Of a stretch of 32,000 bases of DNA, positions 28,420 to 30,446 are shown piece after piece. A model generated the notes under the pieces. It searched no databases, was not told the DNA's origin, and was given only the letters and a program-made list of their open reading frames with translations. This stretch comes from Candidatus Nitrosopumilus koreensis AR1 (lineage in GTDB: Archaea > Thermoproteota > Nitrososphaeria > Nitrososphaerales > Nitrosopumilaceae). The DNA is taken from assembly GCF_000299365.1 (NCBI RefSeq), contig NC_018655.1:1590001-1622000 (forward strand). The letters run 5' to 3'. Every line of letters begins with the position of its first letter. Within the stretch, counting starts at the first letter, position 1. Position numbers and translations under genes: made by a program.

Positions 28420-29172
28420 TTATTTTGTTGATTCTCCTCCATCTACTGCAAGAATAGCTCCAGTGATCCATAATGCGTCATCTGACGCAAAATAGAGTAC
28501 AGCCTTTGCTACTTCTTCTGGTTTTCCTATTCTACCTAATGGATGTTCTGCATTCATGAAATCCCTATCTTTTTGAGTTTTTACAAATGGTTTTGTCATG
28601 TCTGTGTCTACTACTCCTGGACAAATACAATTCACCCTGATTTTGTTTTTTGAATATTCAAGAGCCCAACACTTTGTAAGTATGATTAATGCTGCCTTTG
28701 TTGCTGAATATGCATCAGCGTTAAATCCTTGATATGCCTTCAATCCTGCATCTGATGAAATATTAATTATTGATCCTGATGTTTTTTGTAAATGTGGGAT
28801 TGCCTCTTTTGTAACCCTGTATTGTCCTGTAAGATTTACATCTAAAACTTCATTCCATTCATCTTCTTCAATTTCATGCAGTTGTTTTATCCTTGGAAAA
28901 ACCCCTGCATTATTTACAAGAATATCCAACCTTCCAAATTTTTCAACAATTTTTTGTACTGCATTTTTCACCTCATTAGAATTTCTGATGTCCGCAGTAA
29001 TTGCAAATACATTAGAAATTTCAGCTAATTTTTCTAATCGCTTTTGATCTTTTCCTGTAATTGCTACTTTGGCTCCATTTTCTAGCAAAACTTTTGCAGT
29101 GGCAAATCCTATTCCTCTGCTTCCACCAGTCACTAAAGCAACTTTTCCTGATAAAGACAACAGCTTTAGCAT
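28420..29172 (-). CDS. short-chain dehydrogenase/reductase (FabG-like)
   Basis: It has the classical SDR motifs TGGSRGIG, NNAG and the S...YSATK catalytic triad. The length is 250 aa. Confidence 0.85.
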   Translation of the reverse strand: MLKLLSLSGKVALVTGGSRGIGFATAKVLLENGAKVAITGKDQKRLEKLAEISNVFAITADIRNSNEVKNAVQKIVEKFGRLDILVNNAGVFPRIKQLHEIEEDEWNEVLDVNLTGQYRVTKEAIPHLQKTSGSIINISSDAGLKAYQGFNADAYSATKAALIILTKCWALEYSKNKIRVNCICPGVVDTDMTKPFVKTQKDRDFMNAEHPLGRIGKPEEVAKAVLYFASDDALWITGAILAVDGGESTK

Positions 29173-29326
29173 AAAACTTCGTAATTTATAGATCGATTTT
29201 TAGTAAATAGGAATAAAATATTTCAATAATTAAAAATTTATTTGTAATTTTTTATATAAACTATTAAATAGTTGAAGTTCCTATAACTATTAATGCCGAA
29301 GGATATAATTCCTATCGACTAAAATC

Positions 29327-29420
29327 GCGTAACCCCGCAGAACGACATAGGCAATCAAACGCAAGGTCGTTTGACAACGAGAGGGAATCTCTCATAGTTC
29401 TGCAATGAAGGGGATTACGC
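29327..29420. ncRNA. candidate structured RNA element (three-way junction), class unknown
   Basis: A 94-nt island at 47/94 GC sits in a ~12% GC spacer. A closing helix pairs 29327-29336 with 29411-29420 and 29337-29343 with 29397-29403, with a 6-7 nt one-sided bulge. Two perfect hairpins lie at 29355-29374 and 29379-29393. The single non-Watson-Crick position is C.A on the plus strand and U.G on the minus strand. T-runs follow the element on either strand. Confidence 0.45.
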
Positions 29421-29425
29421 CTCTT

Positions 29426-29857
29426 TTAATTTTGTAAAATATCTACTGATACTGACCCTATCACATTTCCATTTGGATTAATAGAAATTGTAATTTGTTG
29501 ATTCTCTGAAATCAAAATTTCTTTTTGACCTATATACTCCCAAGTAAAATATTGTGAAATTCCAGTTTCATGTGAAGTACCTTGTAGCCTAAAATCTTCT
29601 GAAAAATCTATCTTTTCTCCACTTAATGAAATTGATAAAATTTTTGGACTGCTACCATTTGGAACAAATCTAAATGAATATTCTCCACTATCAATTTCAA
29701 ATGTTTCAGAATATACTCCCTCAATATACAAATCAGGATCTGCCAGTGTTACATGAAATATAACATTGCTTTTCTCACCAGAATCCTCTAGAGAGAAACT
29801 AACTAGAAAAATTCCAATAATTATAACTACGGGAATTATTATTAATTTTTTATTCAA
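29426..29857 (-). CDS. small exported/membrane-anchored hypothetical protein
   Basis: 143 aa with an N-terminal hydrophobic anchor (LIIIPVVIIIGIFLVSF) and a beta-rich body. No recognisable family. Confidence 0.5.
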   Translation of the reverse strand: MNKKLIIIPVVIIIGIFLVSFSLEDSGEKSNVIFHVTLADPDLYIEGVYSETFEIDSGEYSFRFVPNGSSPKILSISLSGEKIDFSEDFRLQGTSHETGISQYFTWEYIGQKEILISENQQITISINPNGNVIGSVSVDILQN

Positions 29858-29894: not shown

Positions 29895-30446
29895 CTATTT
29901 TTCTCTTATCTTTTTTGTTAGTGCTTCTAATTTTTCAAGATTTTCTAAAATCCATGGATCATTTATCAAATCCATAATTTCTTCCATCTTGAATAGTTTT
30001 GGAGTAGTCATGCCCTCTTCAAAATCATATAGTTTGATTATTCTATTTTTTACGTTTTTAGATTCTATCTTTTTATTATGTGCAAAATTATGTGCAAAAT
30101 CATTTCTAATTTCTCTAATTTTATTTAGCGTTTGCTGAATCCTTATTCTTGTTTTTTCATCAATCTCTTTTTTAAAATCTTGATGATTTTTCATGATTCT
30201 TGATATCCAAATTATTTTTGTTCCAAAAGATGCAGTTCTATCTTCATCAAATACTGTTTTGGCCCATAAAGGAAAATCATTTTTATCTCGCAAAAATAGA
30301 TCTGAAATAATCACAGTAAGAGTTGAATCTAATACTGAAACATAACTGAGAAAATTACCTCTTATTCGATTTACCAAATTGATATATTCTTTGTCTGTAA
30401 GTTCTTGGGAATTATCTGGTAAATCAAAACCAAATACTTCATTCAT
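29895..30446 (-). CDS. HEPN-motif protein (MtlR/Abi-like), candidate RNase or defence-type protein
   Basis: 183-aa all-helical ORF. LNKIREIRNDFAHNFAHN contains the Rx4H HEPN signature preceded by FGTKIIWISRI, as in MtlR/Abi-like HEPN families. Two 60-nt lines I counted are 25% GC. Confidence 0.55.
   Translation of the reverse strand: MNEVFGFDLPDNSQELTDKEYINLVNRIRGNFLSYVSVLDSTLTVIISDLFLRDKNDFPLWAKTVFDEDRTASFGTKIIWISRIMKNHQDFKKEIDEKTRIRIQQTLNKIREIRNDFAHNFAHNKKIESKNVKNRIIKLYDFEEGMTTPKLFKMEEIMDLINDPWILENLEKLEALTKKIREK
30076..30099. repeat. perfect 12-bp tandem duplication (TTATGTGCAAAA x2) inside the HEPN-motif gene
   Basis: Read directly from the sequence. On the coding strand it duplicates FAHN, giving RNDFAHNFAHN. 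Confidence 0.95.

What the first reader, a model, noticed from the sequence alone, without database searches (positions are those of the whole stretch)
29327..29420. A 94-nt, 50% GC element in a ~12% GC spacer that folds as a three-way junction: candidate unclassified structured RNA
I counted 47/94 GC in the element against 7/60 in the adjacent spacer line. The pairings can be read by eye. GCGTAACCCC pairs with GGGATTACGC (29327-29336 with 29411-29420). It stacks on GCAGAAC/GTTCTGC (29337-29343 with 29397-29403), leaving a one-sided AATGAA(G) bulge. Inside are two perfect hairpins, TCAAACG-CAAGGT-CGTTTGA (29355-29374) and GAGAG-GGAAT-CTCTC (29379-29393). The only imperfect pair is C.A on the plus strand but U.G on the minus strand. 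This weakly favours a minus-strand transcript starting 5 nt after the stop of gene 29426-29857. TATA-like sequences and T-runs exist for both orientations, so the strand remains open. I could not fit the element to tRNA, 5S rRNA, C/D or H/ACA sRNA, or hammerhead patterns.
Basis: seen in the sequence. Interest (0 to 1): 0.7.

Follow-up and report, generated by a model that had tools for sequence, protein, structure and literature searches.

The report
New two-domain small RNA in Nitrosopumilaceae
The GC-rich element is real and is the folded 3' half of a previously undescribed, roughly 135-base small RNA gene that ocean ammonia-oxidising archaea carry in at least two copies; its job is still unknown.

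Summary
In detail: window 29327-29420 is 47/94 GC and folds as a three-way junction (3WJ; z = -5.3 against shuffles). The element recurs in about 190 Nitrosopumilaceae genome and metagenome loci. About 94% of modelled pairs are kept, 16 of 29 pairs show compensatory changes, and shifted-register controls pair at most 48%.

The 94 nt are only the 3' domain of a larger unit:
- an invariant TATA box (29264-29270);
- a predicted start at 29293;
- a conserved 5' hairpin framed by AUG and a stop codon (9 codons, 29293-29322);
- a 4-nt linker;
- the 3WJ;
- a T-run terminator (29421-29433).

Two paralogues lie on the same chromosome in two genomes. One sits beside a 143-aa gene, the other beside a Zn-ribbon gene and usually purP. 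They share the 3WJ and differ in the 5' hairpin.

Nothing in Rfam 15, ARAGORN or the literature searched matches it. My best reading is a stable trans-acting small RNA in which the 3WJ is a shared scaffold and the 5' hairpin a paralogue-specific module. Ribosomes may also load on it. Function is inferred, not shown.

The parts
29264..29270 (+). TATA box TTAAATA of the RNA gene, centred about 26 nt upstream of 29293.
   Evidence: TTAAAT is invariant and the next A nearly invariant in 52 aligned loci. It sits at the same distance in about 190 loci of both paralogues. The same geometry (TATA at -30 to -23 from the ATG) is seen for several protein genes of the window.
29293..29322 (+). 5' module. 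AUG sits at the predicted transcription start, followed by 8 sense codons and UAA (MPKDIIPID*). Nt 4-10 (29296-29302) pair with nt 20-26 (29312-29318) to form a hairpin with a 9-nt loop.
   Evidence: 180 of 186 loci have ATG, 8 sense codons and a stop (TAA, TAG or TGA). The other 6 have TTG at codon 2. For the hairpin, 85.7% of cells are paired against at most 52.7% in shifted registers, the covariation score is 0.281 against 0.156 (0 of 500 shuffles), and pair 7-23 switches A-U to U-A or U.G between paralogues. The module folds at -6 to -8 kcal/mol in all families.
29323..29326 (+). Linker of 3-4 nt between the stop codon and stem P1.
   Evidence: The distance from the ATG to P1 is 34 nt in 122 loci and 33 nt in 56 of 180 loci.
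29327..29420 (+). Three-way-junction domain (the finding).
- P1: 29327-29336 with 29410-29420 (A29414 bulged).
- One-sided bulge: 29404-29409.
- P2: 29337-29343 with 29397-29403.
- J1: 29344-29354.
- HP1: 29355-29374.
- J2: 29375-29378.
- HP2: 29379-29393.
- J3: 29394-29396.
   Evidence: Folding. The covariance model R1 scores 99 bits here and 59-111 bits in homologues. 93.7-94.3% of cells are paired, 11-16 of 29 pairs have changes on both sides, and 0 of 500 shuffles reach the observed score. The strand comes from the G.U versus A.C count.
29421..29433 (+). A conserved unpaired C after P1, then the oligo-T terminator CTCTTTTAATTTT. It overlaps the stop codon (29426-29428) of the convergent 143-aa gene.
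   Evidence: C after ...CGC, and TTTAATTTT, are nearly invariant in 52 aligned loci. A T-run follows the element in both paralogues.
29426..29857 (-). Convergent neighbour p143: a 143-aa protein with a hydrophobic N-terminus and no known family. It is context, not part of the RNA.
   Evidence: p143 lies next to the RNA in every family-1 and family-3 locus long enough to show it. No Pfam or NCBIfam match above cut-off.

Best explanation
The 94-nt element is the 3' domain of an independently transcribed, plus-strand small RNA of about 135 nt. The unit runs from 29293 to roughly 29425-29433.

Shown here:
- The gene has its own invariant TATA box and an oligo-T terminator.
- The RNA has two covariation-supported domains: a 5' hairpin (7 bp, 9-nt loop) and a 3' three-way junction closed by a long bulged stem.
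- It is conserved across Nitrosopumilaceae.
- It occurs in at least two paralogous genes per genome. These share the three-way junction almost unchanged but carry different 5' hairpins.

Inferred:
- It acts in trans as a stable RNA.
- The GC-rich junction has invariant single-stranded nucleotides (J1 GAAAAAGG, HP2 loop GRAAU). It is taken to be the common scaffold that binds a shared partner, probably a protein, and protects the 3' end.
- The 5' hairpin gives each paralogue its own specificity, for example by loop pairing with a target RNA.
- The RNA starts with AUG at a leaderless-type promoter and carries a conserved in-frame stop 3-4 nt before P1. Ribosomes probably load on it and terminate against the junction. 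This makes it ribosome-associated or dual-function, but the nonapeptide itself is unlikely to be the product.
For: - Conservation and synteny: found in 75 of 80 genomes fetched through the neighbouring short-chain dehydrogenase (SDR) gene, with no second copy within the roughly 3-kb flanks fetched.
- Structure: 94% of cells paired against at most 48% in shifted registers, up to 16 of 29 pairs with double-sided changes, 0 of 500 shuffles as high. An unfitted MAFFT/RNAalifold alignment gives the same fold.
- Strand: G.U 89 against A.C 27, or 5 once one mis-registered pair is removed. The 5' hairpin adds 64 G.U cells.
- Transcription unit: TTAAAT is invariant 26 nt upstream of the conserved block, and a T-run follows P1.
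- Paralogues on one chromosome: L065 with L204 (1,859,078 bp) and L046 with L202 (2,038,535 bp).
- Modularity: the junction is shared, while the 5' module differs between families yet is conserved within each.
- Peptide not selected: in family 2, codon 5 varies freely at positions 1 and 2 but has an invariant A at position 3. Codon 8 changes are the transitions that keep the hairpin paired.
- GC is 50% in a 34% GC genome. By my own knowledge this is typical of stable RNAs.
Against: - There is no expression data. The start, the 3' end and stability are all inferred from sequence.
- No partner protein or target was identified. The neighbours are uninformative.
- Mutual-information analysis found no contact between the 5' and 3' domains and no obvious seed.
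- The AUG (97%) and the stop (100%, all three stop codons used) are better conserved than a pure non-coding model predicts. When ATG is lost, TTG is present at codon 2, in what look like two lineages.
- In L029 and L069 the junction has decayed while the mini-ORF/hairpin module is intact. This is hard to reconcile with the junction being the indispensable scaffold.
- Two forced invariances (P2, HP2) are partly an ascertainment effect of the search pattern used.
Confidence: 0.5

Rival explanations
1. Translation-coupled device. The leaderless 9-codon ORF is translated, and a ribosome terminating 3-4 nt before P1 would have to unwind P1. Ribosome occupancy and the folded junction would then be mutually exclusive, so the RNA reports or responds to translation status. 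The act and length of translation matter, not the peptide.
For: - AUG sits at the predicted start in 180 of 186 loci. The stop is at codon 10 in all 186, using TAA, TAG and TGA. ORF length and the 3-4-nt spacing to P1 are fixed.
- Both paralogue families keep the frame although most of the intervening sequence differs.
- Where ATG is lost, TTG occupies codon 2.
- Leaderless promoter geometry is common in the window.
Against: - The absence of internal stops is not significant. Only 0.4-1.1 sequences with a stop are expected under an independent-sites model.
- Single A-to-G transitions in TAA always give another stop, so stop-codon variety is weak evidence.
- The hairpin starts at nt 4, and G3 is often paired. 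By my knowledge this should hinder leaderless initiation.
- There is no downstream gene to regulate.
Confidence: 0.25
2. A micro-mRNA whose product is a nonapeptide (MPKDIIPID in the window). The three-way junction would be only a 3'-UTR stabiliser or terminator.
For: The same ORF evidence as above. Within family 1 the peptide pattern M-[SP]-K-[DV]-[IV]-I-x-I-D recurs across genera.
Against: - The peptides of the paralogues are unrelated except for M, S or P at position 2, and a terminal D or E.
- Variation follows hairpin pairing rather than codon position: third position invariant, first and second free.
- A mere stabiliser would not need invariant junction and loop nucleotides shared by both paralogues.
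Confidence: 0.08
3. A cis-antisense partner of the convergent gene. The RNA overlaps or abuts the 3' end of p143 (family 1) or lies downstream of purP (family 2). It would act by pairing with read-through 3' UTRs or by transcriptional interference.
For: - The tail-to-tail arrangement is conserved. The terminator overlaps the p143 stop codon.
- On the minus strand there is no T-run between the p143 stop and the far side of the element.
Against: - The two paralogues face unrelated genes yet share the junction sequence.
- In L202 the purP adjacency is broken by two inserted genes.
- Structure-preserving covariation is not needed for a simple antisense role.
Confidence: 0.07
4. A divergent member of a known RNA class that the models miss, such as a tRNA-like RNase P substrate, a Y-RNA-like molecule or an rRNA-mimic protein-binding site.
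For: - The ends resemble those of a tRNA gene: G+1 of a terminal stem, one unpaired C, then a T-run.
- ACGAGAGGA in J2/HP2 equals 9 nt of the sarcin-ricin loop as I recall that sequence.
Against: - There is no Rfam hit at E up to 10 on the window, and none at E up to 5 on 12 homologue loci.
- ARAGORN finds nothing.
- There is no T-loop or anticodon arm.
- The G of the sarcin-ricin-like 9-mer changes to A together with its HP2 partner in 15 sequences, so the local hairpin, not a sarcin-ricin fold, is what selection keeps.
Confidence: 0.05
5. A minus-strand 3'-UTR or terminator structure of p143, or a DNA palindrome bound by a protein such as an origin or operator factor.
For: The minus strand folds slightly better in the window sequence alone. 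The element starts 5 nt after the p143 stop.
Against: - Homologues carry many G.U pairs that would be A.C mismatches on the minus strand.
- A DNA palindrome would not tolerate strand-asymmetric wobble or a one-sided 6-nt bulge.
- Family 2 copies are not next to p143.
- The promoter and terminator are oriented for the plus strand.
Confidence: 0.05

Closest known systems
GC-rich-island small RNAs of AT-rich archaea (HgcC and relatives, found by a GC-content screen; from my own knowledge of Klein, Misulovin and Eddy 2002)
   Same: A stable-looking, GC-rich, independently transcribed structured RNA of about 100-130 nt. It stands out from an AT-rich intergenic spacer and its function is unknown.
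   Different: No sequence or structure match to the Rfam Hgc families. It comes from a different phylum and is mesophilic. It has a 5' AUG-to-stop hairpin module and two paralogues.
Dual-function bacterial sRNAs (SgrS/SgrT, RNAIII/delta-haemolysin, SR1/SR1P; from my own knowledge)
   Same: A small RNA with its own promoter and terminator that also carries a short conserved reading frame.
   Different: Those ORFs encode peptides of 26-43 aa whose sequence is conserved and are Shine-Dalgarno-led. Here the frame is 9 codons, leaderless and lies inside a hairpin, and the peptide sequence is not conserved between paralogues. Translation is untested.
Nine-codon leader peptides of translation-attenuation systems (cat-86, cmlA, erm leaders; from my own knowledge)
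   Same: A very short ORF placed immediately upstream of a stable RNA structure that a ribosome would have to melt.
   Different: Those control a downstream resistance gene on the same transcript. Here the structure is followed by a terminator and a convergent gene.
Three-way-junction aptamers of the purine-riboswitch type
   Same: The topology: a closing stem, two hairpins of 5-8 bp, and conserved junction strands.
   Different: J1 is 11 nt. No covarying loop-loop pairing was found. No Rfam riboswitch hit. There is no downstream gene in cis.
tRNA genes and tRNA-like RNase P substrates
   Same: The gene layout: a TATA box, a 5' leader, G+1 of a terminal stem, one unpaired nucleotide, then a T-run.
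   Different: No cloverleaf, T-loop or anticodon arm. ARAGORN and Rfam are negative. The terminal stem is 17 bp with a 6-nt bulge.

Membership tests
Conserved structured RNA (generic criteria used for new Rfam families) | Base pairs are maintained by compensatory changes beyond what sequence conservation explains. | tested here: met
   93.7% of cells are paired against at most 48.4% in shifted registers. 16 of 29 pairs show double-sided changes. The covariation score is 0.182 against 0.110, with 0 of 500 shuffles as high. The result is similar on the genome-only set and on an unfitted alignment.
Independent archaeal RNA gene | Own TATA promoter about 26 nt upstream of the 5' end, and an oligo-T terminator after the 3' end. 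| tested here: met
   TTAAAT is invariant and the T-run nearly invariant in sequence. Actual transcript ends cannot be tested with these tools.
tRNA | Cloverleaf with a T-arm and anticodon arm, detectable by ARAGORN or Rfam. | tested here: not met
   ARAGORN finds 0 genes in the window. No Rfam tRNA hit at E up to 10.
tmRNA | A tRNA-like domain formed by the 5' and 3' ends, plus an internal tag ORF without a start codon. | tested here: not met
   ARAGORN finds no tmRNA. The ORF is 5'-terminal and starts with AUG.
5S rRNA, SRP RNA, RNase P RNA | A match to the Rfam covariance models. | tested here: not met
   No hit at gathering thresholds in the whole window, nor at E up to 10 locally, nor at E up to 5 in 12 homologue loci.
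Box C/D sRNA | C box RUGAUGA and D box CUGA forming a K-turn. | tested here: not met
   Neither box is present in the transcript sequence 29293-29434.
Box H/ACA sRNA | A hairpin with a two-sided pseudouridylation pocket, and ACA 3 nt from the 3' end. | tested here: not met
   The only internal loop is one-sided (29404-29409). The 3' end reads ACGCC followed by a T-run.
K-turn | A 3-nt bulge followed by tandem sheared G.A/A.G pairs, with GA on both strands. | tested here: not met
   The non-bulged strand is CCCC|GCAG, continuous Watson-Crick. The bulge sequence is not conserved as NNNGA.
Hammerhead and other small self-cleaving ribozymes | The conserved catalytic core (for example CUGANGA ... 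GAAA at the junction). | tested here: not met
   The junction strands are GAAAAAGGCAA, CNAN and ANN. No Rfam ribozyme hit.
Riboswitch or cis-acting leader | Lies in the 5' UTR of a regulated gene on the same strand. | tested here: not met
   On the plus strand the element is followed by a T-run and a convergent gene in both paralogues.
Leader-peptide attenuator | A short translated ORF whose ribosome remodels a downstream structure that controls a downstream gene. | tested here: inconclusive
   A short ORF next to a structure is present. The regulated downstream gene is absent. Translation cannot be tested here.
Dual-function sRNA | A small RNA that is also translated into a peptide. | not testable with these tools
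   The frame is conserved in 186 of 186 loci. No ribosome-profiling or proteomic data are available.

The most novel reading that the evidence does not exclude
This is a new class of archaeal ribosome-engaging small RNA. A leaderless 9-codon frame is folded into a hairpin, and its stop codon parks the terminating ribosome 3-4 nt from a conserved three-way junction. Translation and RNA fold are therefore coupled in a free-standing RNA that has no downstream gene. It is kept in two specialised paralogues in one of the ocean's most abundant archaeal groups.
Probability: 0.25. Interest if true: 0.85.

Novelty: categorically new. Interest (0 to 1): 0.66.

Why it matters
Nitrosopumilaceae carry out much of marine ammonia oxidation and have small, streamlined genomes. 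By my own knowledge, almost no regulatory or structural RNAs are known in them beyond rRNA, tRNA, SRP RNA and RNase P RNA.

This small RNA gene is kept in at least two copies with an almost invariant promoter and a conserved structure. The loci span Nitrosopumilus, Nitrosarchaeum and Nitrosomarinus, from marine and non-marine samples, so it is likely to do something central.

The family gives a concrete target that is testable straight away for Northern blots, dRNA-seq, Ribo-seq and pull-downs. The covariance model and alignments made here (R1, A3-A5) are the material for a new Rfam family. If the AUG-to-stop frame is used by ribosomes, it would be the first example of a free-standing translation-coupled small RNA in archaea.

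Tried and rejected
- Rfam at gathering thresholds on the whole window, and at permissive E-values locally and on 12 homologue loci: only chance-level hits elsewhere.
- ARAGORN: nothing.
- The bacterial promoter/terminator scan is not informative for archaea. I read the archaeal TATA box and T-run from the alignments instead.
- Viral contigs: 0 matches.
- Mutual information over the full-length alignment, looking for pseudoknots or 5'-3' contacts. The top pairs only reflected the family split and the known helices.
- J1 AAAAAGG pairing with the RNA's own CCUUUU tail, and linker UAAAAC pairing with the HP1 loop. Complementarity exists in some sequences but does not covary, so I dropped both ideas.
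- A sarcin-ricin-loop mimic (ACGAGAGGA): rejected because that G covaries within HP2.
- A K-turn at the P1/P2 bulge: rejected because there is no GA on the opposite strand.
- Concerted evolution between the paralogues. Some lineage-specific HP1 variants are shared, but the two copies in chromosome OZ242220.1 differ clearly, so I make no claim.
- A test for the absence of in-frame stops in the mini-ORF: underpowered, with only 0.4-1.1 expected.
- Pfam and NCBIfam on the neighbours: nothing above cut-off.
- Six literature searches and one paper read: no description of this RNA.
- Reaching other ammonia-oxidiser families. Distribution outside the family is therefore untested.

Full report
OBSERVATION. 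GC is 47/94, against 6/60 in the adjacent line, 18/120 in the spacer from 29173 to 29292, and 34% for the whole window. The four helices pair as stated. RNAfold returns the same three-way junction on the plus strand (-34.4 kcal/mol, z -5.3, 0 of 200 shuffles as good) and on the minus strand (-39.2 kcal/mol, z -6.0). Rfam 15 gives nothing at gathering thresholds over the whole window. At E up to 10 around the element, nothing overlaps it. ARAGORN finds no tRNA or tmRNA.

HOMOLOGUES AND STRUCTURE. I fetched loci through the neighbouring short-chain dehydrogenase gene (SDR, 28420-29172, minus strand). This gave 80 Nitrosopumilaceae genomes. nhmmer and a covariance model built here (R1) find the element in 75 of them. 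It always lies 150-400 nt upstream of the dehydrogenase gene and divergent from it, and no locus shows a second copy within its roughly 3-kb flanks. The remaining loci are cut off at a contig end, or hold decayed copies (L029 and L069).

On the model-fitted alignment, 94.3% of cells are standard pairs, against at most 48% when partners are slid by 1-3 columns. Eleven pairs change on both sides, and no shuffle reaches the observed covariation. After adding metagenome sequences, 16 of 29 pairs change on both sides. One caveat applies: the metagenome pattern fixed parts of P2 and HP2, so their invariance in that set is partly ascertainment.

STRAND. G.U or U.G pairs on the window's plus strand number 89 cells, against 27 A.C or C.A cells. 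Of those 27, 22 come from one pair that is mis-registered because of a bulge in HP1. For example, G11 pairs with U in place of C in 16 sequences. On the minus strand these pairs would be mismatches.

THE ELEMENT IS ONLY PART OF THE UNIT. Printing the flanks and aligning 52 loci shows further conserved features:
- an invariant TTAAAT(A) at 29264-29270;
- a conserved block starting exactly 26 nt downstream of its centre, with ATG at 29293;
- a nearly invariant C followed by TTTAATTTT directly after P1.

The geometry of a TATA box at about -29 to -23 from an ATG is also seen for several protein genes in the window. This fits leaderless transcription in this organism.

The 30-nt block reads as ATG, 8 sense codons and a stop in 180 of 186 loci. 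The stop is TAA, TAG or TGA and lies 3-4 nt before P1. The other six loci lack ATG but have TTG at codon 2.

The same block is also a hairpin. Nt 4-10 pair with nt 20-26 in 85.7% of cells, against at most 52.7% in slid registers. There are 64 G.U cells, and pair 7-23 switches from A-U to U-A or U.G. The covariation score is above all 500 shuffles. The hairpin folds at -6 to -8 kcal/mol in every family.

IS THE MINI-ORF TRANSLATED?
In favour:
- AUG sits at a leaderless-type start.
- The stop is universal and the length is fixed.
- The frame is kept in paralogues whose intervening sequence differs.
- TTG is present wherever ATG is lost.

Against, or neutral:
- The lack of internal stops is not significant. 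Only 0.4-1.1 sequences with a stop are expected.
- In family 2, codon 5 varies at positions 1 and 2 but never at position 3.
- The amino-acid changes in codon 8 are exactly the transitions that keep U.G or U-A pairs.

I conclude that the peptide sequence is not what selection sees. Ribosome loading remains possible.

PARALOGUES. The metagenome scan (120 loci) splits into three groups.
- Family 1 (M[SP]K[DV]IIxID*) lies between the dehydrogenase gene and a 143-aa gene, p143.
- Family 2 (MSLVxKSGD* or MSLVTKTNE*) lies between an 86-aa CxxC Zn-ribbon gene and purP.
- Family 3 (MRKDANPID*) lies next to p143 in a syntenic locus that lacks the dehydrogenase. It is therefore an orthologue of family 1.

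Both paralogues occur on one chromosome in two genomes. In OZ242220.1 (1,859,078 bp), family 1 is L065 and family 2 is L204. In OZ241981.1 (2,038,535 bp), the pair is L046 and L202. I equated the ENA contigs with the NCBI records by their identical lengths and shared source tag.

The junction is nearly the same in both paralogues. The 5' hairpin is paralogue-specific but conserved within each family across genera.

WHAT IT IS NOT. It is not any of the following:
- tRNA, tmRNA, 5S rRNA, SRP RNA or RNase P RNA;
- a C/D or H/ACA sRNA, because the boxes are absent;
- a K-turn, because the strand opposite the bulge is fully Watson-Crick paired;
- a hammerhead-type ribozyme, because the junction strands do not fit;
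- a riboswitch or attenuator, because no gene lies downstream on the same strand;
- a viral element.

Literature searches found no description.

MOST LIKELY MECHANISM. Shown: this is a conserved, two-domain, plus-strand RNA gene with its own promoter and terminator, present in at least two copies. Inferred: it is a stable trans-acting RNA. The GC-rich junction, with its invariant single-stranded nucleotides, would be a common scaffold and partner-binding site. The 5' hairpin would provide paralogue-specific recognition. Ribosomes may load at the 5' AUG. My confidence in this functional reading is about 0.5. The main rival, at 0.25, is a translation-coupled device in which a ribosome terminating 3-4 nt from P1 competes with the fold. 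The other readings each score at or below 0.08: a nonapeptide mRNA, a cis-antisense partner of the convergent gene, a missed known class, and a minus-strand or DNA element. The reasons are given with each rival.

OPEN POINTS. No expression data were available. No partner or target was identified. The decay of the junction with retention of the 5' module in L029 and L069 is unexplained.

VERDICT. The feature is real, and no description of it was found. Interest is 0.66.

Noticed in passing
L029:2743-2870 (minus strand) and L069:2761-2880 (minus strand): In two genomes the three-way junction is decayed. These are a Red Sea Suakin Deep MAG (GC of the element 0.28) and Ca. Nitrosopumilus limneticus AOA-LC4. 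The model scores only 26-29 bits there, yet the upstream TATA box and the 9-codon hairpin module are intact (MPNNIISIY*, MSKGTICID*).
   Followed up: partly
window 29375-29387: ACGAGAGGA, spanning J2 and the 5' strand of HP2, is identical to 9 nt of the universal sarcin-ricin loop of 23S rRNA as I recall it. In 15 homologues the G changes to A together with its HP2 partner, so this is probably chance.
   Followed up: partly
window 29344-29351 versus 29420-29427: In most homologues the J1 A-run (GAAAAAGG) is complementary to the RNA's own 3' tail (CCUUUU). In the window copy (J1 GACAUAGG) the match is imperfect. No covariation was seen, so a pseudoknot is neither supported nor excluded.
   Followed up: partly
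window 29895-30446 (minus strand): A 183-aa ORF two genes from the RNA has weak, sub-threshold similarity to Abi_2 and HEPN domains (E 0.005-0.1). It is present in only some family-1 loci.
   Followed up: no
window 29158-29200 (minus strand): The listed ATG of the dehydrogenase gene has its best TATA-like box (CTATAAAT) only about 15 nt upstream. Homologues align from residue 3-5 onward. The real start may be a leaderless TTG at codon 5.
   Followed up: no
L106:6550-6810, L204:5838-6107, L202:7947-8210: An 86-89-aa CxxC...CxxC Zn-ribbon gene with no family above cut-off stays divergently paired with the family-2 RNA, even where the purP adjacency is broken. It could be a partner or a regulator.
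   Followed up: partly
L121:72-127 (minus strand): A weak match to the Pyrococcus C/D box sRNA family (24 bits, E 0.31, below gathering), near a family-2 locus. It is a possible unannotated C/D sRNA.
   Followed up: no
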